Below are positions 6,135 through 56,723 of a stretch of DNA of 64,000 nucleotides, in pieces. Position numbers and translations under genes: made by a program. Below the pieces are notes generated by a model, which searched no databases, had not been told where the DNA came from, and saw nothing but the letters and a program-made list of their open reading frames with translations. Position 1 is the first letter of the stretch, and every line of letters starts with the position of its first letter. The stretch comes from a virus, in IMG/VR virus record IMGVR_UViG_3300030104_003613, one strand, 5' to 3'.

Positions 6135-6960
6135 AATTAAAAAGTAAAAGTTCTTTGCGTTCCTTTTGCTCACGCATATACTCACCTACCGAGCGCATGG
6201 TGTAAGTGAGATCGAATTCAGCAGCATTCCATGACTTGAAGCGGTCCATGACCAACTGGGCGGAGTTATAACTGACAAGACAATCCATAGAGCAATTATC
6301 GCAGTCAGAGGCAAACCCATCGTGATCAAATCTCTTGTGCATTGATCCCTTTTTTCCATAGAGGTTGTCTTTGATGTCATAGGGAGGGTCCAGATAAACA
6401 AACGCATTTATATCAGATCCTTCGTCAAGAAGTCTCTCATATGAATAATTAGTTATATCCCAATTTTTAATCAACTGCGTGTAACCCTCAAGTTTTAAGA
6501 TACCCTTCATCGAAAAGTTACTATCAGATGCTTGAGAGGAGAAAGAAGAACTTTCAGTCAGACCAGAGAAAGAACATTTGTTGATGACATAAAAAGATAT
6601 CGCTCTCCATAGAGGATCTTCATTGTTGTGCTCAAGATAATCCTTTGACGACAAGAACAATCCCCTAGCAGAACCAGGATCAGGATAACGAGACTTTAAC
6701 TCCATCAGTTTCATTCGGAGTTCATATCCATTCTCCTGAAGTTGCTGCCAGAAGTTAACCAGTGGTTCATACAAGTCATTGACCCAAATCTTTACGTCTG
6801 GATACTTCTTGGTGACATATATGGAAACACTACCTCCACCTAAAAAAGGTTCCCTGAACTCATCGTAATCACGGAGATCAGGGATATAGGGTCCAATCTT
6901 TTTAGTGGCACGACTCTTACCACCGGGATAACGAAGAGGGGTTTTCAAAGATTTCATCAA
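6124..6960 (-). CDS. dam: DNA adenine methyltransferase (Dam/D12 class)
   Basis: PLRYPGGKS, EPFLGGGSV (motif I), YLDPPY (motif IV). Confidence 0.93.
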   Translation of the reverse strand: MMKSLKTPLRYPGGKSRATKKIGPYIPDLRDYDEFREPFLGGGSVSIYVTKKYPDVKIWVNDLYEPLVNFWQQLQENGYELRMKLMELKSRYPDPGSARGLFLSSKDYLEHNNEDPLWRAISFYVINKCSFSGLTESSSFSSQASDSNFSMKGILKLEGYTQLIKNWDITNYSYERLLDEGSDINAFVYLDPPYDIKDNLYGKKGSMHKRFDHDGFASDCDNCSMDCLVSYNSAQLVMDRFKSWNAAEFDLTYTMRSVGEYMREQKERKELLLFNYGR

Positions 6961-34749: not shown

Positions 34750-36252
34750 TTAAAAGGTTGTCTGTAAAACTTTGAATGTAGTGGATGATGCCGATGATGG
34801 TGTTGCCAACAATTGGAGAGTTGTTCCACTAATATTCATAGTGAATGATGCCAAACTAGCACCAGTCTTAATCACACCCACCTCTGTTATACTTACAGTA
34901 GTTCCATTATGTACGAAACTTACAGTTGTAAAGTGAGCTGCTGACCCTCTTGTTACCTGAATTTCAAGAACACCTGCTTTATATGTATCTTTCGCCAGAT
35001 TGAGAATAGATGTCTCTGATGTAGAAGTAGTGGTTGTAGATGTGACACTCGCAGCACCAGTCGCAATTAGAGTTCTATCAAGATTAAAAACTGTGGTGGC
35101 AGATGAAGCAGGATAAGCAAGAAGTTCAAGATTAGAACCATTTATCCTAGCAGAGAAGGTTGATAATCCTGGTCCAGTTTGAATCGTGCCAAATTCATTT
35201 ACATAGGCAAGTGAACCATCATGAACAATGTTGACATTGGTAAAATGAACAGCAGTTTCACTAGTTACTTGAACCTTATAAATCGCAGCACTGTAAGTTA
35301 TTTTTGCTATCGAATCAATGCTTACTTGACCAGTAGATGATGTTGTCGTGACACCTGGTGATCCGCTCGATGATCCACTTTGATCGGCAAATCCCAGATT
35401 ACCAGCGCCATCGGTGATCAAGACTTGGTTGGCAGTCCCGTCCGCCTGGGGATATCTCAATCCACTGATCGTAGTTATACCAGTAACTAATAAAGTATCA
35501 GCATTGACATCACCAACAGTAATATTTGGTGTACCAGTAAGTCCCTGAGCATTTGTTGCTGTGGTTGCTGACGTTGCTGTATCAGCATTACCTGTGACAT
35601 CTCCGGTCAGGTCTCCTACAAAACCAGGAGCAGTAACAATACCAGTGAATTTAGCAGCACCATCGGCAAAGATGCTGGCACTGATAGGAGCACTATCAAA
35701 GGTCGGTGTGCCGTTATCATCAAAAGTATCTGATGTATTATCAAAAGATTCTGATGATGGATTTCTTAAAAAGAATCCACCGATAGACGTTGTAACACCT
35801 GTGGCAAATATATTCTTTGCCTGTAAATAATTAACATTCAGTCCATCAGAATGAAGGTCTGAACTACCAACACGAAATCCTTGTGAGTGTAATGTAGCAC
35901 CACCATGGGTAACACCACCACCTACATCAACAGAGGTTTCTGAAACTGTGATACCACTGCCGACTTTTACATTATTATTAGATCCATCAATAACTACACT
36001 GGATGAACCAACAGTCAGTACACCGACGATACTTACATCGCCATCATACTCAATTTGTGTCGCCCCGAAATTCTCTGTCCAGGGGTTGATAATCGAGATC
36101 GTGGTGGCAATACCTACACCACTAGTATCTCTTCTCGTAAAAAGTTTACCATCATAAGTATTCAGAGCTAACTCGCCTAGCTCTAATCCTGACAGCGTGG
36201 GTCGTTTACCAGCGACCGCAGACCGCTTAAACTTAATCTTTGGGTTGGCCAT
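34750..36252 (-). CDS. Fibre protein with Mtd_N-like N-terminus and a duplicated C-terminal domain
   Basis: IKFKRS...GELALNTYDGKLF; G/T-rich shaft; two ~95-aa Y.AA...QVT...HFT...VH.G repeats. Confidence 0.8.
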   Translation of the reverse strand: MANPKIKFKRSAVAGKRPTLSGLELGELALNTYDGKLFTRRDTSGVGIATTISIINPWTENFGATQIEYDGDVSIVGVLTVGSSSVVIDGSNNNVKVGSGITVSETSVDVGGGVTHGGATLHSQGFRVGSSDLHSDGLNVNYLQAKNIFATGVTTSIGGFFLRNPSSESFDNTSDTFDDNGTPTFDSAPISASIFADGAAKFTGIVTAPGFVGDLTGDVTGNADTATSATTATNAQGLTGTPNITVGDVNADTLLVTGITTISGLRYPQADGTANQVLITDGAGNLGFADQSGSSSGSPGVTTTSSTGQVSIDSIAKITYSAAIYKVQVTSETAVHFTNVNIVHDGSLAYVNEFGTIQTGPGLSTFSARINGSNLELLAYPASSATTVFNLDRTLIATGAASVTSTTTTSTSETSILNLAKDTYKAGVLEIQVTRGSAAHFTTVSFVHNGTTVSITEVGVIKTGASLASFTMNISGTTLQLLATPSSASSTTFKVLQTTF

Positions 36253-36260
36253 TACAATCC

Positions 36261-36295
36261 AGGTATATACCTATGAAAATACCGATATATATCGG
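36261..36295. repeat. Two perfect palindromes in the fibre gene leader
   Basis: AGGTATATACCT (36261-36272) and CCGATATATATCGG (36282-36295), between late promoter CATAAATA (36303-36310) and the ATG. Confidence 0.8.
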
Positions 36296-36305
36296 CTAAT
36301 AATAT

Positions 36306-36551
36306 TTATGACCAGTCCTCGGAGTTGGTAGATTTGGTTTTAGCACCAACACCTCGTTTCTTATCTAGATTTTTAATCTGATCTTGATACTCTTGGATAC
36401 TTTTTTCCAACTCCTCAATCTTACTGTTTTGAGCAGTAATGATTTCGTTTTGATAGTTTATCTTTGATTCAAGTACAATGCTTTGAGAGAAATAATCAGT
36501 CACTTTTTTCTGTAATACATTCAAGTAATAGTTTAATTCATTCTGATCCAT
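36306..36551 (-). CDS. Small coiled-coil protein (possible fibre chaperone)
   Basis: 81-aa heptad-rich ORF between two fibre genes. Confidence 0.7.
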   Translation of the reverse strand: MDQNELNYYLNVLQKKVTDYFSQSIVLESKINYQNEIITAQNSKIEELEKSIQEYQDQIKNLDKKRGVGAKTKSTNSEDWS

Positions 36552-36579
36552 AACATAAGAGGTATCATCTCCTTATATA

Positions 36580-39306
36580 TCAGGTGAATGAACCACCATC
36601 CACGGTGATGTTTTCAAGGAATCTTGTAGAACCTGTACAGGAGATAACTTGTGACGATCCAGCACAGTCTCTAATCCAAAGTCCTTTTGCCTCAATGTCC
36701 GCCCAGTGGTTAACAGAGGCAACAGAAGCACCAGCACCAGTAGTATTAACAACAACATCGGTAGCAAAACCGATTCTCATGTCTCCGCCATTCTTTACCT
36801 TAAAGAAGACTGCTGCTTTCTGTGCGTTAGTAGAGTTGATACCAACATGGTTGTAGTACGCAATTATACCAGCATTGGTGTTGGTTACATTAGCAGGTGG
36901 TTGAAGTGAACCATCAGCGAGTCTTTGAAGTCCCAGTTCAACAACAGGAGAAACGATTCTCAAGTCTTCAACATCAATGCTGGTAACAGAACCACCAACC
37001 GCAAGATTACCAGTGATCTCAACGTTACCACCGAATGTACCGTTGCCGGACATTTCCAGTGAGGTGCCTTTAAATTGTGCTGCTGTGGCAACACCTGACA
37101 GATTAGCACTAATGCCTTTTACTTGTCTGATGTGACCTTCATCCCAGTTCAGTGATGTGGCACCTAAATCGCTAGTGCGATCCGCAATTGGCAGAAGATT
37201 AGAATCAAATCTACCAGTAACAGTAACTGTGTCAGTTGACTGATTACCAATGTCAACATTGCCTTGAAGAACAGCGGCACCAGCAGCGGTAAATTGTCCC
37301 TGAACCTCATGATCAGTAGATGTTGTGACCTTACCTGTGCTGTCAGCAATTGTTTGTGCTGCCGTTCCATCTGATGCTCGCAGTGCCCCAACATCAACTG
37401 TGGGAACATTCAGTTCCGTTGTGATGGTTACTGTGGCGGGAAGACCAAATGTTACTGTATTTGTTGACGCATTGACCGCAGTATCAACTTCATTTGTTGT
37501 TCCAGATAAAGTTAAGGTTTGACCTGTCTGGAAGATATCAGTGGTGCCACTATCAGCAGCAACTCCAAAGGTAACTGCAACACCAGAAACACTGCTATCA
37601 ACATAAGTCTTGATCGCTTTGGATGAGGCGACAGTATCATCAGATCCAGATACAGATGAAATATCAGTGTCAACGGATGTAATCGCGGTTCCACTGGTAA
37701 ATGTTAAGTTATCAATGGTCGCATTAGTAGCATCTACCGTGCCAACATTTATTTGGTTGGAACTTGGATTGTAGGTAAGTCCATTGTCTATTCCAAAAGC
37801 TCTACCAACGGAGGTATTAGAACCATCCGTCATGGTGAGAGTAAAATTAGTGTCAGTAGTCGATACGTTGGTAACACTAAGCTTATCAGCAAGATCAGCA
37901 GTGCCTTCCAAATCACCTACAAAAGTTGTAGCTGTTACTGAACTGATACCACTAATATTGGTTGAGTTATCGCCAACAATGTTTCCATTAGCTTTAATAT
38001 TTCCAGCAACAGTCAGAGCATTTGTTGAGGGATTAAATGAAATACCAGCGCCTGTTCTTATACTTTCCTGTGTAGGACTGGTGTTGTTATCAGATACAAA
38101 AGTAATAAAGTGAGTTGAGGCAACATCTGTTTGTCCAACAGCCACGGTAGCAGCAGAAGCACCACCACCAGCTACACTTTCAAGTTCAGTTTCAAGATCT
38201 TGAAGAGCACCTTTTACGGTTTCACTATCAGCAATGATAGAACCTGTAAAGGTTCCAAGGTTAGTGGCATCTCTTGCTACGCCGGATAGGGTTACAAGAT
38301 TCTCGCCTGCTTGACCATCATCAAGGACATCTCTACCATCAACTGTCCCTGTTACGACAATATTACCATTGACTGTTAGGGCAGCACCAACAATGTTTCT
38401 AACAGTGATGTCAGGTGTGCCGGTAAGTCCCTGTGCGTTAGTAGCAAGTGTGGCAGTAGATGCTGTACCAGTTACATCACCGGTAACATTACCAACTACG
38501 TTTCCAGTAAAGCGAGTAGAAACCAGATTACCAGTTGATGGATTGTAATTTAATCCTGTATCAGTTTCAGCACCTTGGGTTCCAGTGGCACCATCAACAA
38601 ATACTGGAAATACTGTTTCGTCTGTGGTATTATTAGCAGTAACCGTAAAGTTAGTAGATGTAGTGGCGGTATCAGCATTACCTGTAACATTACCTGTTAG
38701 GTTGCCAACAAATCCACCACCAGCAGTAATGATACCTGATTGACCAGCATCAATACCACCAAGATTAATGGTAACAGCAGAACCAACAACTACGCTGTCA
38801 AATGAGGAACCTCCGCCTCCACCACCAAGAACATATGACTTAAGTCTTGAAGCAGTTGTCTTTCTGTTTGTACCTGTAGCACCATCATCAACAATAAACA
38901 GGTCGGCATCTACAATCGCCGCACCAATATCCGTGGCACCATCGATATCAATATTGGATACATTGACATCACCGAACGATAGCGTTCCTGATCCGTTCGT
39001 CTGTAGTAACTGATTGGCACTCCCGTCCGTTACAGGGAATGTATATGTTACTGCAGCACCGATAGTCGCGGGTGCTGCTAATTCAATAAACTCGGTTCCG
39101 TTATTAGTTGCTTCAAAAAGTCTTACACCACCACCCTCTGTGGTTGTGTTAATATTGAAAAAGTCTCCATCGCCAATCAGTTGGTTTCCATCCAAAGAAC
39201 CAACAAAAAGTTGATAACGATCAGTTGTAAAACCTGGTTCACCAACAGCAAGTGTTGGAAGATTAGCAAACGCGCCTCTTTTAAACTTAAGGGTTGGTGA
39301 TGCCAT
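36580..39306 (-). CDS. Long fibre protein with Mtd_N-like N-terminus
   Basis: LKFKRG...LAVGEPGFTTD; GNLTGNVTG shaft repeats; ends ITVDGGSFT. Confidence 0.82.
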   Translation of the reverse strand: MASPTLKFKRGAFANLPTLAVGEPGFTTDRYQLFVGSLDGNQLIGDGDFFNINTTTEGGGVRLFEATNNGTEFIELAAPATIGAAVTYTFPVTDGSANQLLQTNGSGTLSFGDVNVSNIDIDGATDIGAAIVDADLFIVDDGATGTNRKTTASRLKSYVLGGGGGGSSFDSVVVGSAVTINLGGIDAGQSGIITAGGGFVGNLTGNVTGNADTATTSTNFTVTANNTTDETVFPVFVDGATGTQGAETDTGLNYNPSTGNLVSTRFTGNVVGNVTGDVTGTASTATLATNAQGLTGTPDITVRNIVGAALTVNGNIVVTGTVDGRDVLDDGQAGENLVTLSGVARDATNLGTFTGSIIADSETVKGALQDLETELESVAGGGASAATVAVGQTDVASTHFITFVSDNNTSPTQESIRTGAGISFNPSTNALTVAGNIKANGNIVGDNSTNISGISSVTATTFVGDLEGTADLADKLSVTNVSTTDTNFTLTMTDGSNTSVGRAFGIDNGLTYNPSSNQINVGTVDATNATIDNLTFTSGTAITSVDTDISSVSGSDDTVASSKAIKTYVDSSVSGVAVTFGVAADSGTTDIFQTGQTLTLSGTTNEVDTAVNASTNTVTFGLPATVTITTELNVPTVDVGALRASDGTAAQTIADSTGKVTTSTDHEVQGQFTAAGAAVLQGNVDIGNQSTDTVTVTGRFDSNLLPIADRTSDLGATSLNWDEGHIRQVKGISANLSGVATAAQFKGTSLEMSGNGTFGGNVEITGNLAVGGSVTSIDVEDLRIVSPVVELGLQRLADGSLQPPANVTNTNAGIIAYYNHVGINSTNAQKAAVFFKVKNGGDMRIGFATDVVVNTTGAGASVASVNHWADIEAKGLWIRDCAGSSQVISCTGSTRFLENITVDGGSFT

Positions 39307-39335
39307 TACTTCAACTTATACCTTCGTAATTGTAT

Positions 39336-40295
39336 TTATGGACTAAATGAACCAAAGTCTTGGTTACCATCTTCGGTGCCATCAGACAAATCAACAACCT
39401 GGAAGGGAGTATCGAATCCCCATTCGGAATCTCCTGCCTTGAAGACGATGAGATCGTTGTTCTGTGGAATGTCTGTAGAGATACTGTATCCAGCAAGGTT
39501 TGTAGTTGCTGCTCCGATTTGACTCGTAGCAATGAACTGACCAGACGTTGAGTCAAACGCTAGAACAGAACCGTTAAGGATAGTGGTAGCAGCAGTACCA
39601 GCGATGGTTTGAAGTGGTCCTAGATCGAGGTCTGCTGCCTTTGGTCTAGGAACCCACTTATTATTTGGATCATCCCAAACAAGAACATAACCACTTTGAA
39701 GTCCGACAATGCTTACATCATCTAAATCTTTGATAAATCCGGCACCACCACCACCAATTGTAGAGGTTTGACGCACTGTTTCGTAGACCATCTTGCGAAG
39801 TTGGTCAATTTCACGCCTCAATCTGTTGACTTCACTGTCTTTTTCATCATCAATTTTCTCTTCTTGAGGCATTTTGTCAAGAATTTCAATGCTTTTCAGC
39901 AAATTATTAGATTTATCTACCTTAACGTCCAAATCATCTCTGATTTTTGCCAAAGTTTCAAGTTCTTCAATCGATTCCTCGACTATTTCTGGTTCAGGAG
40001 CGGGTGCTAGGGGTTCTGGTTCGATGATATTGACAGTTTCAATCTCTAATGGCTTGTAATTGTCCTTCCAATCGGTCGTATCAACCTCTTTTTTGGGTTC
40101 TGAGAACAGAAAACTTTCAAATGCCTTTGCTTCTTGAGATATTTTCTCCTTCTTTTTCTTAAGTTTTGCTTTTTCTTCACTCAAAGACGCAAAAAGGTCT
40201 CCGAGAGACAAATCGCCAATCAGTTCTTGTTGTTTTTCTTGCTTTTTCTTCTTCTCTTCACCAATTAAACTGAAGAAATCTCCTAAATCTTTCAT
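39336..40295 (-). CDS. Coiled-coil protein with fibre-like C-terminus
   Basis: Charged N-terminus, GGGGAG linker, LDDV...GYVLVWD repeats; ends DFGSFSP. Confidence 0.75.
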   Translation of the reverse strand: MKDLGDFFSLIGEEKKKKQEKQQELIGDLSLGDLFASLSEEKAKLKKKKEKISQEAKAFESFLFSEPKKEVDTTDWKDNYKPLEIETVNIIEPEPLAPAPEPEIVEESIEELETLAKIRDDLDVKVDKSNNLLKSIEILDKMPQEEKIDDEKDSEVNRLRREIDQLRKMVYETVRQTSTIGGGGAGFIKDLDDVSIVGLQSGYVLVWDDPNNKWVPRPKAADLDLGPLQTIAGTAATTILNGSVLAFDSTSGQFIATSQIGAATTNLAGYSISTDIPQNNDLIVFKAGDSEWGFDTPFQVVDLSDGTEDGNQDFGSFSP

Positions 40296-40746: not shown

Positions 40747-41762
40747 TAGATAAATCCACCATCGAATCCGAAGTTGTCACCTACGTCAATGAATGGAGTG
40801 TCATCAACAGTAATACCATGTACCGCTGCTCCAGAGACGTGTGTTTCTAACGTAGTCTGATCTTTCGCTCTATCGACAGTAATCTTGTTACCACTGACTT
40901 TTCTGACATACATCAGTTCTTCATCAATGTAGATATCAGTTTCTGCTGTAATCTTGGTTCCGTCAACAACAGTGATTACAGTGTCTTCATCAGTGATGTC
41001 TTCTGCCAGGTTGGTAACAACAACACCGTCATAATCTTTAAGTGCTCTGGGTACAACTTTATAGTTGACATCTCTTTCATAAGATGCAGAGGAACCTTTA
41101 ACAATGGATCTAGAACCACCAACGTATCCAATGTTGACCTTATTGATGATACTAGAGGATACATCCTTGACAGGGCCATACATGTAGACTTTAGCAGTAA
41201 ATCTAAATGTATAGACTAGTGCTCGTCTAGTATCAAAATTACCCTCATAATCGTCCTCCATCGAAATGTTATCCAGGACAACAGGGACGTTCATTACTTC
41301 ATTCACACATCCAAGAATTTTGATGGGGATTGTAAAGGATGGTGCGAAATATGGAAGTACTTGTTCAGTAATTTGAAGCATATCATCATTGAGTTTTGTC
41401 ATTGCTGACAATTCAAAGATCATATTGTATGGGACGGGCATGTATGCCCTTTTGGTTTGTGATCCATCTTCACAAGTTGCTACGAAACTTTGGGTTTTGG
41501 ATACCTTTCTCTCTGGATCATAAACGAGATCGATAAATTCAAATGACATCCTAGGAAGTGTCATCTGAACAGGAGTGTTGAGTTTTGGAGTTTGCTCCAG
41601 TCTTGCTAAAAACTTCTGTGTTGGTCCATAAGCAAGAGGAACTTTGATGACACTCCAAGTATCATCATTATCATCTTTATGTTTTATCTGTATATCGTTA
41701 AATAACGATCCAAACGCGATGATGGTGGATCTTAAGATCTCGTTATAAAAATATTCAAACAT
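40746..41762 (-). CDS. gp15: Tail sheath stabiliser / completion protein
   Basis: YFYNEILR, KVPLAYGP, LPRMSFE, PVPYN, EQVLPYF; C-terminal extension. Confidence 0.93.
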   Translation of the reverse strand: MFEYFYNEILRSTIIAFGSLFNDIQIKHKDDNDDTWSVIKVPLAYGPTQKFLARLEQTPKLNTPVQMTLPRMSFEFIDLVYDPERKVSKTQSFVATCEDGSQTKRAYMPVPYNMIFELSAMTKLNDDMLQITEQVLPYFAPSFTIPIKILGCVNEVMNVPVVLDNISMEDDYEGNFDTRRALVYTFRFTAKVYMYGPVKDVSSSIINKVNIGYVGGSRSIVKGSSASYERDVNYKVVPRALKDYDGVVVTNLAEDITDEDTVITVVDGTKITAETDIYIDEELMYVRKVSGNKITVDRAKDQTTLETHVSGAAVHGITVDDTPFIDVGDNFGFDGGFI

Positions 41763-44670: not shown

Positions 44671-45054
44671 TTAGACTGTGGAAATCCCTGTAAACACATT
44701 AATGTTGCCTCTAGCAATACTATAAGTGCTACTTCCTACGCCCATAAAGATATCAAACTCATATCTTCCTTGTTTTATAGATGTGGTATCACTTCTGCCA
44801 AGACCAATCTTAAATTCACCACTAGTGGCACCAGTGATAGTTTCAGTAAACTCCGCAGTTGGCACACCAGAAGAACCAACCGCAACAGTCTTTGTCATTC
44901 TTGAATACATTGTATGAGAAGTCAAATCATAGTTTGACCTATCATTATTCAAAATCTTGAATGTTTCTTCAAAATCAACACCTGTAAACATTGTAAGATT
45001 AACACCATAGGGTGTTCTTACTGTGGGATCGAAGGTGATTGTATTATTAGCCAT
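44671..45054 (-). CDS. Virion structural adaptor-like protein
   Basis: NL...G.DF...F...YDLT...I.L....T..I..GRYEFDI pattern typical of BppU-like adaptors. Confidence 0.65.
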   Translation of the reverse strand: MANNTITFDPTVRTPYGVNLTMFTGVDFEETFKILNNDRSNYDLTSHTMYSRMTKTVAVGSSGVPTAEFTETITGATSGEFKIGLGRSDTTSIKQGRYEFDIFMGVGSSTYSIARGNINVFTGISTV

Positions 45055-54485: not shown

Positions 54486-56723
54486 TTAACGAAGTTGTGG
54501 ATAGATGAAAATAGTTCCACCCATTCCAGAGTGTGATGTACACTGATAATACAACGTATTAGGTGCATTCATGGTGACTTCAAATTTCACTGTTCCATTT
54601 GAAGCATCATTGTTAGTAACACCATTATTATATTGTGTTCCAGTTGACCCATTAGGTGTAGATTGAATGCGGAATGGGTGAGCGCCCATGTTATTAACAA
54701 ACTCATATACACTACCTCTCGCGAGATAGAGATCTGGGTCATTTGTGGTTACCGTAAAACCAACACCAGTAAAGGTGTAGTCACTACTACCATTAGCACC
54801 AAGTGTCCATTTACCGCTAACAAGATCTGATCCATCACCTTCAAACGAACCTGCTGTTGAAACCCCAGTAACAGTTAGTCCATCATTTAAGAGGGTGTTA
54901 CCGTTAACAACTAGTGATGTACTAATACCAGTCGCAGCTGTGACATCGTGAATTGCTACAAGTGGTCCAGCGGAGAAGTTTCCATTTACACCAAATTGGA
55001 ATCCTGCCTGTTGATTCAGAGGAAGGGAACCACCACCACCTCCATCAGTCACAAAACGAAGAACACCGTTTGATGTGAACATTTGTGCGGCTACAGGAGC
55101 ACCAGGACCATTGTAGTAGAATCCGAGGTGATTTGCTCCTGATCCATCAACGTTTTGACCAACAGTGAAAGCCGCAATTCCATTTGGATTGACAACTGCA
55201 AGTTGACCATTTGGTGCAGCAGCACCAACACCAGCACCAACTCTCAGTGATCTAATAGTACCGATACCAGCAGTCGCAATGCCAGTGATGTTAATATCAC
55301 TTGCTGTTGACACACCACTAACAACAAGAGTATTTGCTCTTACTTCAGCAGTAGAACCACTACCTGTGGCAGTAGAGGTAATAGTTGTAATACCAGCGTT
55401 AGTTGTTACTGTGATATTATTACCCGCAGAAATCAAAGTAGTGATTCCAGTGAGATTTACACCACTCCCAGTGAAAGAAGTAGCAGTTACAATACCCGCA
55501 AACTCCGCATTACCACCTGCTCTGATAGTAACACCAATACCAGTAGTGGTGATACCAGTGGTGGTGCCATAAACAACACCAGAACTCGCGACTGGTGTGT
55601 TTCTTCCACCTGTGGTTGTACTGCTAGCCGTTATACTATCTTCAAAGATACCAGATGAACCAAGTGCCTGGTTATTAGTAATGTTACCTTCCCTGTAATC
55701 AGGATCATTGAAGTTATAGACAGCCATCCATGAGGAATCTTCTACACTGTAAATTACGATTCTATCTTCTGGATCAAATCCAGCCTGTGCCACATAATAG
55801 TAATAGTTACTATCTGCGTGGAACAAAGCATTACCAGAATCTACTGTTCCAGTATCAAGAACAAATCCTGTGCTCTGAGCCTGATAAATTTGGTTGAAAG
55901 AAGATGGAGATAGACCAGAAGTAGTTAAGTTCTGCCAGTCTGTTCCTGCTGCTCCTGTTTGAGCAGTACGTCCAGCTCCGATAAACAGATTGTCACTAAT
56001 GCTGGAAATACCAGTAACGAGAATCTGGGATGCTGTTATAATACCAACAGTAGATACACCAGAAACAACTAATGTATTTGCCCTTACTTCGGCAGTAGAA
56101 CCACTGCCTGTAGCAGTAGAAGCAATAGTTGTAATGCCAGCATTAGTCGTTACTGTGATGTTACTGCCCGCAGAAATAAGGGTAGTGATTCCAGTAAGGT
56201 TTACTCCGCTTCCAACAAAAGAAGTAGCAGTTACAACACCAGCGATATTTACATTATCTAAGTTTGTATGTCCATCTACATCTAGATCGCCATTCGCATC
56301 AATATTTCCAGTGAATGTGGATACACCAGAAATAACTAACGTATTTGCCCTTACCTCAGCAGTTGACGCTGCTCCGGTGATACCAGTAAGTTCTGATCCA
56401 TCACCATAATATTTTGTTGCCTGGATTGAAGTTACACTAGTAACAACACCCAGTGTTGACACACCAGTAACAACTAATGTGTTTGCCCTTACCTCAGAAG
56501 TCGTCGCTGTTCCGGTAATCGTAACCGAACCATATGCTGTGCTAACTCCAATGTTATCACCAGCAACAATCTGGGTTACAATACCAACATAAGCATTAGT
56601 ACCATCACCGATGATACCATAAACTTCACTGAAGTTGGAATTAATTTTAGTAGCACCCGCCAACAGGGTATCCCCTGTACCATCATTAGGAGTTGTGCCT
56701 GTACTAATGCCTAGTCTTGCCAT
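54486..56723 (-). CDS. Baseplate-attached fibre with gp9/gp10-type N-terminus and cupredoxin-like C-terminal domain
   Basis: GTTPNDGTGDTL..GATKINSNF; four (T/S)(A/S)EVRANTLV repeats; C-terminal HPF...YYQCTSHSGM. Confidence 0.82.
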   Translation of the reverse strand: MARLGISTGTTPNDGTGDTLLAGATKINSNFSEVYGIIGDGTNAYVGIVTQIVAGDNIGVSTAYGSVTITGTATTSEVRANTLVVTGVSTLGVVTSVTSIQATKYYGDGSELTGITGAASTAEVRANTLVISGVSTFTGNIDANGDLDVDGHTNLDNVNIAGVVTATSFVGSGVNLTGITTLISAGSNITVTTNAGITTIASTATGSGSTAEVRANTLVVSGVSTVGIITASQILVTGISSISDNLFIGAGRTAQTGAAGTDWQNLTTSGLSPSSFNQIYQAQSTGFVLDTGTVDSGNALFHADSNYYYYVAQAGFDPEDRIVIYSVEDSSWMAVYNFNDPDYREGNITNNQALGSSGIFEDSITASSTTTGGRNTPVASSGVVYGTTTGITTTGIGVTIRAGGNAEFAGIVTATSFTGSGVNLTGITTLISAGNNITVTTNAGITTITSTATGSGSTAEVRANTLVVSGVSTASDINITGIATAGIGTIRSLRVGAGVGAAAPNGQLAVVNPNGIAAFTVGQNVDGSGANHLGFYYNGPGAPVAAQMFTSNGVLRFVTDGGGGGSLPLNQQAGFQFGVNGNFSAGPLVAIHDVTAATGISTSLVVNGNTLLNDGLTVTGVSTAGSFEGDGSDLVSGKWTLGANGSSDYTFTGVGFTVTTNDPDLYLARGSVYEFVNNMGAHPFRIQSTPNGSTGTQYNNGVTNNDASNGTVKFEVTMNAPNTLYYQCTSHSGMGGTIFIYPQLR

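What the first reader, a model, noticed from the sequence alone, without database searches (positions are those of the whole stretch)
34750..40295. Possible plug-and-socket fibre chain: DGGxF/DFGSF C-termini alternate with KFKR (Mtd_N-like) N-termini
Seen: the 319-aa ORF ends ...NQDFGSFSP and the next gene (908 aa) starts PTLKFKRG...LAVGEPGFTTD. That protein ends ...ITVDGGSFT and, after an 81-aa coiled-coil gene, the 500-aa protein starts PKIKFKRS...GELALNTYDGKLF. gp15 also ends FDGGFI. Known: the KxKR...GE domain resembles the N-terminus of the Bordetella phage Mtd fibre. Inference: a short D-(G/F)-G-x-F peptide docks into the next trimer's N-terminal socket, building a multi-gene fibre end to end in gene order. 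The cluster sits between gp16 and gp17, away from the baseplate genes, so it may form a head or neck appendage.
Basis: partly seen in the sequence, partly recalled or inferred. Interest (0 to 1): 0.75.

Follow-up and report, generated by a model that had tools for sequence, protein, structure and literature searches.

The report
Plug-and-socket joints in phage fibres
Three neighbouring genes of an uncultured marine cyanophage encode segments of one fibre that seem to be joined end to end, a five-residue tail peptide of one segment fitting the head domain of the next; this is the joint that links gp36 to gp37 in the phage T4 long tail fibre, and it recurs across very many phages.

Summary
The 319-aa protein ends D-F-G-S-F-S-P. 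The 908-aa protein starts with a Pfam Mtd_N domain and ends D-G-G-S-F-T. After an 81-aa coiled-coil gene, the 500-aa protein starts with a related domain, 48% identical to the N-terminus of T4 gp37.

The pairing is not chance:
- **Adjacency.** In 147 fetched loci plus this window, the gene just upstream of a socket gene ends [D/N]-x-G-x-hydrophobic (plus 0-2 residues) in 118 of 156 cases, against 32 of 999 other gene pairs.
- **Polarity.** Socket-bearing proteins carry the tail peptide in 27 of 31 cases when another socket gene follows, and in 0 of 72 when none does.
- **Covariation.** Aromatic-ended plugs go with K-R-S or K-R-G sockets, aliphatic-ended plugs with R-R-G sockets.
- **Protein-level selection.** Synonymous sites in the plug codons vary freely.

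The same pair occurs at T4 gp36/gp37, where binding is shown experimentally, and at BPP-1 Bbp9/Mtd.

The gp15 tail is probably unrelated, and a head or neck location has no support. No paper or solved structure describing the motif pair was found.

The parts
39336..40295 (-). 319-aa proximal adaptor. It has no socket. The N-terminal half is Lys/Glu-rich and helical, followed by beta-hairpin repeats and a C-terminal plug.
   Evidence: ORF and translation. Residues 2-216 hit phrog_30742 'tail fiber protein' at 6.5e-24. Residues 2-215 are 30% identical to residues 7-177 of the single-chain 961-aa fibre of P-TIM68. Six homologues were aligned. The AF2 model has low confidence and only its secondary structure is usable.
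39345..39359 (-). Plug 1: D-F-G-S-F, followed by S-P and the stop codon.
   Evidence: Coordinates checked. Homologues end Q-D-[FY]-G-[SA]-F plus 0-1 residue, or L-D-A-G-G-F where the next gene is the 500-type fibre.
36580..39306 (-). 908-aa middle fibre segment carrying both a socket and a plug.
   Evidence: Internal regions hit phrog_30158 and phrog_34255. tblastn finds 'tail fiber-like protein' of S-B05 at 49% identity over 52% of the query.
39172..39306 (-). Socket 1: Mtd_N domain of the K-R-G type, residues 1-45 of the 908-aa protein.
   Evidence: Pfam PF18454 at 2.7e-8 and 5.4e-10, above the gathering score.
36586..36600 (-). Plug 2: D-G-G-S-F, followed by T and the stop codon.
   Evidence: All seven aligned homologues keep I-[TS]-[VI]-D-G-G-[ST]-F while their codons differ at synonymous sites.
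36306..36551 (-). 81-aa coiled-coil accessory gene lying between the plug gene and the next socket gene. It has no canonical plug in this phage.
   Evidence: Weak coiled-coil Pfam hits only. Homologues of 74-96 aa in relatives mostly end D-G-G-[ST]-F (variants D-D-G-S-F, D-A-G-S-F and D-D-G-D-I-Y). More distant clusters have a 57-105-aa coiled-coil gene at the same place without a plug. No frameshifted plug remnant follows the stop.
34750..36252 (-). 500-aa terminal fibre segment. It has a socket and no plug. Its C-terminal half holds two tandem domains of about 85 aa, the likely receptor-binding end.
   Evidence: The N-terminus hits phrog_1699 'long tail fiber protein distal subunit' at 7.7e-8, and residues 192-492 hit phrog_30742. 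Internal repeat: residues 312-394 against 416-498, 42% identity, E 2e-23.
36115..36252 (-). Socket 2: K-R-S-type N-terminal domain, residues 1-46 of the 500-aa protein, homologous to the gp36-binding N-terminus of T4 gp37.
   Evidence: hhalign against T4 gp37 residues 6-47: 98%, E 1.9e-13, 48% identity. BLASTP gives 6e-9. hhalign against the 908 type: 92%, E 6e-7. There is no direct Pfam hit.
40749..40766 (-). gp15 C-terminal F-D-G-G-F-I. It resembles a plug but is probably not part of this system.
   Evidence: Relatives end F-G-F-D-G followed by variable residues (N-V-F, S-I-I, N-L-F, S-T-F, S-I-E). P-TIM68 keeps it although its genome holds no socket at E <= 0.01.

Best explanation
The genes at 34750-40295 encode one segmented fibre assembled in gene order: the 319-aa adaptor, then the 908-aa shaft, then the 500-aa tip, with the 81-aa coiled-coil protein as an accessory.

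Each joint is of the T4 gp36-gp37 kind. The upstream protein ends in the pentapeptide D-[L/F/Y/G]-G-[T/S/A]-[L/F/Y/V/I], zero or one residue from the free carboxyl end (the plug). The downstream protein begins with a roughly 45-residue Mtd_N / gp37-N domain (the socket).

**Shown.** The two motifs are present here and co-occur in gene order across many unrelated phages. They follow a chain polarity: the first protein has a plug only, middle proteins have a socket and a plug, the last has a socket only. The classes covary. T4 gp36 binds the N-terminal region of gp37.

**Inferred.** The pentapeptide itself lies in or on the trimeric N-terminal prism of the next protein. The conserved Asp and the terminal carboxylate would face the conserved basic pair ([K/R]-[R/K]) of the socket's first strand, and the last hydrophobic side chain would sit in a pocket that sets the class (aromatic or aliphatic).

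**Open.** The site on the virion where the 319-aa adaptor is anchored.
For: 1. **Motifs in the window.**
2. **Syntenic relatives.** Eleven IMG/VR relatives and S-B05 keep a plug before every socket. One of them (L010) lacks the shaft and the coiled-coil gene. There the homologous adaptor ends L-D-A-G-G-F directly before the K-R-S-type fibre.
3. **Unrelated phages.** BPP-1 Bbp9 ends D-L-G-G-I-A before Mtd. AH02, CRP-3, S-TIP37, HTVC008M, two Vibrio phages and a phiKMV-like phage behave likewise.
4. **Adjacency statistics.** 118/156 against 32/999 gene pairs, odds ratio 94, p 4e-96. By BLAST family, 15/32 against 5/442, p 9e-16.
5. **Polarity.** 27/31 against 0/72.
6. **Covariation.** R-R-G sockets have aliphatic-ended plugs in 43/52 cases. 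Other sockets have aromatic-ended plugs in 30/32 cases, p 2e-12.
7. **Protein-level selection.** Synonymous variation in the plug codons, and spacing to the next gene from -1 to about 65 nt.
8. **T4 archetype.** gp36 ends Q-D-F-G-Y-Y and gp37 starts with the socket. Three more T4-like phages and a Colwellia phage do the same. [quoted passage not shown]
9. **Fusions.** P-TIM68 and phrog_30742 join adaptor-like and tip-like parts in one chain. qdvp001 and library proteins such as P0047 carry a plug-like peptide 7-11 residues before an internal socket.
10. **Mini-adaptors.** Proteins of 68-84 aa exist that are only a socket plus a plug.
Against: - No structural or binding evidence for the pentapeptide itself. 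Both AF2 monomer models were uninterpretable (mean pLDDT 42.5 and 44.7), and no multimer tool was available.
- About a quarter of socket genes lack an upstream plug. Examples are S-SSM7, a class ending N-L-F-W-S-E-A-Q-A, a class in alphaproteobacterial MAGs, and variants with Ala or Val in place of the Gly.
- Plugs can outnumber sockets. S-B05 has four canonical plugs and two sockets, so a simple one-to-one linear chain may be too simple.
- In this window the gene directly before socket 2 (81 aa) has no plug, so the 908-to-500 joint skips a gene.
- The statistics are not phylogenetically corrected beyond dereplication and family grouping.
- The loci were collected through socket queries.
Confidence: 0.62

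Rival explanations
1. The proteins do join end to end, but the pentapeptide is only the last strand or cap of a larger C-terminal joint domain. Contact with the next protein would be made by broad domain surfaces rather than by a peptide entering a socket.
For: Conservation extends beyond five residues. The 908 family keeps D-C-A-G..S-C..R-x-L-E-N-I-T-V-D-G-G. Many marine upstream proteins share a module of about 18 residues, C-M-[DE]-P-x-G-x(5-7)-D-L-G-x-L. Covalent fusions keep only I-D-G before an internal socket.
Against: The plug occurs on bodies with nothing else in common: coiled coils after a basic linker, proteins of 70-130 aa, and shafts of 1000 aa. Its distance to the free carboxyl end is fixed at 0-1 residue in 77 of 78 dereplicated cases, which points to recognition of the terminus.
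Confidence: 0.2
2. The C-terminal peptide is an assembly tag read by a chaperone, for example the small coiled-coil protein or a host factor. It would time fibre trimerisation and would not itself be part of the joint.
For: A small coiled-coil gene sits inside many clusters between a plug gene and a socket gene. T4 fibre assembly needs chaperones (PMC3004832).
Against: Many plug-socket pairs have no such third gene, including BPP-1, phiKMV-like and T7-like phages and T4 gp36/gp37. This reading does not explain why terminal socket proteins never carry the tag (0/72), nor why tag class follows socket class.
Confidence: 0.07
3. The pairing reflects common descent of a mobile junction cassette (the end of one gene plus the start of the next) kept as a recombination site for swapping fibre modules. 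There would be no plug-specific function.
For: Fibre loci are mosaic. Conserved junctions are classic sites of exchange in T-even fibre genes (my own knowledge of the T-even literature, not checked here).
Against: Amino acids are conserved while codons drift, and the intergenic spacers differ in length and sequence. Conservation holds at less than 30% identity of the flanking bodies. Covariation and polarity need a protein-level reason.
Confidence: 0.04
4. The fibre is a neck or collar whisker, hung on the C-terminal F-D-G-G-F-I tail of gp15 and taking the place of T4 fibritin. This concerns location and can be combined with the best explanation.
For: The cluster lies next to gp13-gp16 here. 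In other marine T4-like contigs it lies directly upstream of gp13, where wac sits in T4. In T4, fibritin contacts gp15 (PMC3004832). gp15 here has a C-terminal extension of about 85 aa beyond the Pfam domain.
Against: P-TIM68 keeps the gp15 tail with no socket anywhere in its genome. The last residues of gp15 are variable. gp15 of the other marine group has no such tail. The tip protein's N-terminus is closest to a tail-fibre subunit. Gene position is weak evidence of virion position.
Confidence: 0.15

Closest known systems
Phage T4 long tail fibre, gp36-gp37 joint of the distal half-fibre
   Same: gp36 ends Q-D-F-G-Y-Y. The next gene, gp37, starts with the K-R-S-type domain, which is 48% identical to the start of the 500-aa protein. 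The genes are adjacent and in order. Trimeric gp36 is known to bind the N-terminal region of gp37 (PMC3004832).
   Different: The upstream partners here are not gp36 homologues: there is no Pfam Phage_T4_gp36 hit. There are two joints in series plus a coiled-coil gene. No gp34 or gp35 equivalents were recognised. The attachment site on the virion is unknown.
Bordetella phage BPP-1 Mtd on its tail fibre (Pfam Mtd_N, PF18454)
   Same: The 908-aa protein has a true Mtd_N domain. In BPP-1 the gene before mtd (bbp9, a putative tail fibre) ends D-L-G-G-I-A. Mtd sits at the ends of the tail fibres (PMC2408619).
   Different: Pfam finds no C-type-lectin tip in the window's fibre proteins. Variable and template repeats and a reverse transcriptase were not looked for. 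The sockets are of the K-R-G and K-R-S classes, not R-G-G or R-R-G. The plugs end in an aromatic residue.
Anchor-and-branch receptor-binding protein systems (T7 gp17-like anchors, T4 gp10-like branching domains in Klebsiella, CBA120 and G7C-type phages)
   Same: The principle is the same: the N-terminus of one fibre or spike docks on another fibre protein encoded next to it. This comparison rests on general knowledge and on RBPseg (PMC12143355).
   Different: Those systems use large docking domains and side branches. Here the conserved element on the upstream side is a terminal pentapeptide, and the arrangement looks serial.
C-terminal peptide recognition modules such as PDZ domains (analogy only)
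   Same: A short motif fixed at the free carboxyl end, with a terminal hydrophobic residue that sets the class.
   Different: There is no homology. The analogy is an inference about mechanism and was not tested.

Membership tests
Pfam Mtd_N (PF18454) | HMM match above the gathering score, at the extreme N-terminus | tested here: met
   908-aa protein: 34.0 bits on the whole protein and 39.5 bits on the first 60 aa, against a cut-off of 26.3, covering residues 7-36.
Pfam Mtd_N (PF18454) | The same match for the 500-aa protein | tested here: not met
   No Pfam hit up to E 10. The direct hhalign comparison with classical Mtd_N sequences is weak (E 0.042). The link is only transitive, through the 908 type (92%, E 6e-7).
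Pfam Mtd_N (PF18454) | Trimeric beta-prism fold as in the Mtd crystal structures | not testable with these tools
   Only monomer prediction is offered. A profile of the sockets hits only the Mtd chains in the PDB (5e-19).
T4 gp37 N-terminal (gp36-binding) region | Sequence homology to gp37 residues 1-50 | tested here: met
   500-aa protein: hhalign 98%, E 1.9e-13, 48% identity over 42 columns. BLASTP 6e-9. phrog_1699 'long tail fiber protein distal subunit' 7.7e-8.
T4 gp37 N-terminal (gp36-binding) region | Preceded by a gene ending D-[FY]-G-x-[FY] at the carboxyl end | tested here: inconclusive
   The gene directly before it (81 aa) ends S-E-D-W-S. The one before that (908 aa) ends D-G-G-S-F-T. 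In relatives the 81-aa homologue does end D-G-G-[ST]-F.
T4 gp36 (Pfam Phage_T4_gp36, PF03903) | HMM match to the gp36 body | tested here: not met
   No hit for the 319-, 908- or 81-aa proteins at E <= 0.1. T4 gp36 itself scores 9.6e-53. Only the terminal Q-D-F-G-x-[FY] is shared.
T4 fibritin (wac) neck whisker | Homology to fibritin or its C-terminal foldon | tested here: not met
   The Pfam scan of all four proteins gave no fibritin family at E <= 0.1. The PDB sequence searches were empty.
DGR variable protein (Mtd-like) | C-type-lectin variable region with a template repeat and a reverse transcriptase nearby | not tested
   Pfam shows no such C-terminal domain. Repeats and a reverse transcriptase were not searched for.

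The most novel reading that the evidence does not exclude
A general, undescribed connector code of tailed phages. A carboxy-terminal pentapeptide, D-[L/F/Y/G]-G-x-hydrophobic, plugs into the Mtd_N / gp37-N prism of the protein encoded next. There would be at least two largely orthogonal classes: aromatic-ended plugs with K-R-S or K-R-G sockets, and aliphatic-ended plugs with R-R-G sockets. This would let phages string fibre segments, 70-residue mini-adaptors and tips together in gene order. It would unite the T4 gp36-gp37 joint, BPP-1 Bbp9-Mtd and tens of thousands of marine and other fibre proteins.
Probability: 0.45. Interest if true: 0.85.

Novelty: new variant of a known kind. Interest (0 to 1): 0.7.

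Why it matters
Tail-fibre proteins decide which bacteria a phage can infect, yet for most phages it is unknown which fibre genes belong to one fibre and in what order.

If the rule holds, the order and ends of fibre chains can be read from sequence alone. A plug without a socket marks the anchor, a socket with a plug marks a middle piece, and a socket without a plug marks the tip that meets the host.

The socket is very common: 32,078 representative proteins at E <= 0.001 in a library of 1.84 billion. The rule gives a residue-level hypothesis for the T4 gp36-gp37 joint, for which the sequence searches found no solved chain. It links that joint to the attachment of the diversity-generating protein Mtd. 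It also makes the unannotated fibres of marine cyanophages and pelagiphages interpretable.

Tried and rejected
- **Near-identical phage.** None in the phage collection (megablast). No whole genome is held for the window.
- **Socket alignment as a locus query.** A single classical 50-mer was used instead.
- **Direct hhalign of the 500 type against classical Mtd_N.** Not significant. The link had to go through the 908 type and T4 gp37.
- **AF2 monomer models.** The 908-aa C-terminal 200 residues (mean pLDDT 42.5) and the 319-aa adaptor (44.7) were too poor to show whether the plug is a free tail. No fold search was run on them.
- **Multimer docking.** Not available. Reading through a stop codon to make a fusion was considered, but no adjacent pair of cluster genes is in frame.
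- **Plug as a Shine-Dalgarno or promoter constraint.** Rejected. The spacing to the next start varies from -1 to about 65 nt, and the codons vary at synonymous sites.
- **A frameshifted plug after the 81-aa gene.** None found.
- **gp15 tail as first plug.** Rejected as unsupported.
- **Literature.** Searches for Mtd_N, Bbp9, BPP-1 cryo-EM, cyanophage fibres and motif strings found no description of the motif pair. Subscription journals are not covered.
- **Earlier findings of this scan.** Nothing on this topic.
Full report
**What is there.** The window is part of an uncultured T4-like cyanomyovirus. gp15 is 64% identical to that of Synechococcus phages S-B05 and S-B43, and 59% to Prochlorococcus phage P-TIM68. 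No near-identical record exists in the phage collection. All genes of interest lie on the - strand in this order: gp13, gp14, gp15, gp16 (small terminase), a 319-aa protein, a 908-aa protein, an 81-aa coiled-coil protein, a 500-aa protein, a DUF6321 protein, gp17.

The 908-aa protein starts with a true Pfam Mtd_N domain. The 500-aa N-terminus is not recognised by Pfam. It is homologous to the 908 type (hhalign 92%, E 6e-7). It is even closer to the N-terminus of the T4 long-tail-fibre distal subunit gp37 (98%, E 1.9e-13, 48% identity; BLASTP 6e-9; phrog_1699).

**Relatives.** S-B05 and eleven syntenic IMG/VR contigs have the same cluster. In every one, each gene that starts with the domain (the 'socket') is preceded by a gene ending D-[G/F/Y/A]-G-x-F plus 0-2 residues (the 'plug').
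- The adaptor family ends Q-D-[FY]-G-[SA]-F.
- The shaft family ends I-T-V-D-G-G-[ST]-F.
- The coiled-coil family mostly ends D-G-G-[ST]-F.

The window's own copy of the coiled-coil gene is the exception, ending S-E-D-W-S, and no frameshifted remnant follows it. One contig (L010) lacks the shaft and coiled-coil genes. There the homologous adaptor ends L-D-A-G-G-F and is followed directly by the K-R-S-type fibre. P-TIM68 instead has a single 961-aa protein whose first 177 residues match the adaptor and which continues as a fibre, with no socket and no plug. Its whole genome contains no socket at E <= 0.01. PHROG phrog_30742, a tail-fibre family of about 1000 aa, matches both the adaptor and the tip protein. 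These single-chain versions argue that the separate proteins here form one fibre.

**Generality.** A classical Mtd_N 50-mer found 84 phage records, 80 IMG/VR loci and 14 MAG or prophage loci. In unrelated phages the gene just upstream of the socket gene ends as follows:

| Phage | Upstream C-terminus |
|---|---|
| BPP-1 Bbp9, before Mtd itself | D-L-G-G-I-A |
| Pseudomonas AH02 | N-L-G-G-L-A |
| Roseobacter CRP-3 | D-F-G-S-I |
| T7-like S-TIP37 | D-F-G-T-L |
| Pelagibacter HTVC008M | D-L-G-S-V-A |
| Vibrio 1.021.B | D-Y-G-S-V-A |
| Vibrio D69 | D-D-G-G-L-S |
| phiKMV-like BV72 | D-F-G-A-L |

Several marine contigs show whole chains. In L061 the order is: a 77-aa protein with a plug only, a 510-aa protein with socket and plug, a 103-aa protein with socket and plug, an 84-aa protein with socket and plug, and a 654-aa protein with a socket only. 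This chain lies directly upstream of gp13-gp14-gp15 homologues.

**Statistics.** ORFs were called in the 147 fetched loci plus the window (1,524 ORFs). Sockets were defined with an iterated HMM on the first 70 residues (165 ORFs).
- *Adjacency.* The upstream neighbour of a socket gene ends [D/N]-x-G-x-[FLIVMWY] plus 0-2 residues in 118 of 156 pairs, against 32 of 999 other pairs (odds ratio 94, p 4e-96). Many of the 32 are chain members separated from the next socket by a small gene.
- *By family.* Grouping upstream proteins into BLAST families, with termini removed, gives 15 of 32 against 5 of 442 (p 9e-16).
- *Polarity.* Among dereplicated socket-bearing proteins, 27 of 31 carry a plug when the next gene (or the next but one across a gene of at most 110 aa) has a socket. 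None of 72 carries one when a non-socket gene follows.
- *Covariation.* R-R-G sockets follow aliphatic-ended plugs in 43 of 52 pairs. K-R-S and K-R-G sockets follow aromatic-ended plugs in 30 of 32 (p 2e-12). K-R-S sockets always had a small residue at plug position 2.
- *Consensus.* Over 78 dereplicated plugs the pattern is [T/S]-x-D-[L/G/F/Y]-G-[T/S/A]-[L/F/Y/V/I], with 0 or 1 residue after it in 77 cases.
- *Selection level.* Codons differ at synonymous sites, and the distance to the next start ranges from -1 to about 65 nt. Selection therefore acts on the protein.
- *Negative set.* 22 loci fetched for an internal fibre motif, all without sockets, had no plug.

These numbers are dereplicated but not corrected by independent contrasts. 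The loci were gathered through socket queries.

**The known archetype.** T4 gp36 ends Q-D-F-G-Y-Y. The adjacent gp37 starts with the socket (HMM E 4e-12). Acinetobacter KARL-1, Klebsiella phiKp_1 and Boboto keep D-[FY]-G-[ST]-[FY] at the end of gp36 and the socket at the start of gp37. Colwellia phage 9A (its neighbouring gene is annotated 'central tail fiber J') has M-D-G-G-V-F before a K-S-S-type socket. Leiman et al. 2010 state that trimeric gp36 binds the N-terminal region of gp37 (PMC3004832). So a plug-bearing and a socket-bearing protein are experimentally known to join end to end.

I found no atomic description of that joint. PDB sequence searches with socket profiles return only isolated Mtd crystals. 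The 500-aa protein finds no gp37 N-terminal chain. A 2026 T4 preprint models the distal rod only at low resolution. Pfam does not annotate the gp37 N-terminus. No paper in the searchable library describes the motif pair. Subscription literature was not searchable, so prior description cannot be excluded.

**Breadth and fusions.** A profile of 44 allowed sockets finds 32,078 representative proteins at E <= 0.001, and 5,351 at E <= 1e-10, among 1.84 billion. Thirteen of the top 150 have a second, internal socket. Several of these are preceded by I-D-G or, in P0047, by D-F-G-T-F eleven residues upstream. Vibrio phage qdvp001 has D-Y-G-A-V seven residues before an internal socket.

**Mechanism.**
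- *Shown:* gene-order pairing, polarity, class covariation, protein-level selection, and the T4 precedent.
- *Inferred:* the terminal peptide of each chain of the upstream trimer lies on or in the trimeric N-terminal prism of the next protein. The fixed distance to the free carboxyl end, the invariant Asp and Gly, and the conserved basic pair in the socket suggest recognition of the Asp and the carboxylate by the basic residues. The last hydrophobic side chain would act as the specificity determinant.
- *Accessory gene:* the coiled-coil gene is optional in position and in plug content. It may be a strut, a second plug donor or a chaperone.

**What does not fit.**
- About a quarter of sockets have no canonical plug upstream.
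- Plugs can outnumber sockets. In relatives, two plug-bearing genes often precede one socket.
- The gp15 tail looks similar but persists without any socket.
- The anchoring site is unknown. The cluster's place beside the neck genes, and at the wac position in other marine phages, hints at the neck. The gp37-like N-terminus hints at a tail fibre.

**Verdict.** The core interpretation is well supported by comparison and by the T4 precedent, but physical docking of the peptide is unproven. The gp15 and neck parts are not supported. The cluster is a new serial variant of a known kind of joint. The sequence rule behind it seems not to have been described.

Noticed in passing
window 34750-35319 (residues 312-498 of the 500-aa protein): There are two tandem domains of about 85 residues at the C-terminal end (42% identity, E 2e-23). 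Similar domains of about 100 aa occur as separate small genes after the tip fibre in L010, one of them with a similar C-terminal ending. This may be the receptor-binding module.
   Followed up: partly
window 44671-45054: This 127-aa protein hits phrog_1084 and phrog_3304 ('L-shaped tail fiber protein assembly'). Proteins of about 110 aa with a similar N-terminus open the plug-socket clusters in S-B05 and in many marine contigs (L056, L061, L083, L111).
   Followed up: partly
L001 (S-B05) 6391-6956; L003 1922-3690: In relatives, two consecutive plug-bearing genes precede one socket gene: 108 aa plus 79 aa, 134 aa plus 374 aa, and the shaft plus the coiled-coil protein. Plugs therefore outnumber sockets, and the stoichiometry of the joint is unexplained.
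   Followed up: no
window 36583-36720 (C-terminal ~45 residues of the 908-aa protein): All seven homologues keep two cysteines (D-C-A-G .. S-C) and R-x-L-x-N-I just before the plug. This could be a small disulfide-braced end domain.
   Followed up: no
window 40749-41003 (gp15 residues ~256-341): gp15 carries an extension of about 85 residues beyond the Pfam T4-gp15 domain, ending G-D-N-F-G-F-D-G-G-F-I. The F-G-F-D-G core is conserved in relatives, including P-TIM68, which has no socket. Its partner is unknown.
   Followed up: partly
window 54486-56723; L005 8003-10471; L009 3306-5792: The 745-aa fibre starts with another widely conserved N-terminus, M-A-R-L-G-I-(N/S)-T-G-T-x-P-N-D-G-T-G-D. In several relatives a homologue sits on the opposite strand right after the tip fibre. 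This may be a second type of fibre attachment module.
   Followed up: no
window 36282-36295: A perfect hairpin (C-C-G-A-T-A-T-A-T-A-T-C-G-G) followed by T-A-T-T-T-T lies between the coiled-coil gene and the 500-aa gene. It looks like a terminator but was not scanned with a tool.
   Followed up: no
L058, L060, L121; L119, L120, L124, L127; L131-L139: Some classes of socket genes have no canonical plug upstream. One class has D-[FL]-G followed by seven more residues ending A-[YH]-V-G-A. One ends N-L-F-W-S-E-A-Q-A. In alphaproteobacterial MAG loci the upstream gene of about 750-830 aa has an unrelated C-terminus (several end in A-A) about 95-150 nt before a 190-aa socket protein.
   Followed up: no
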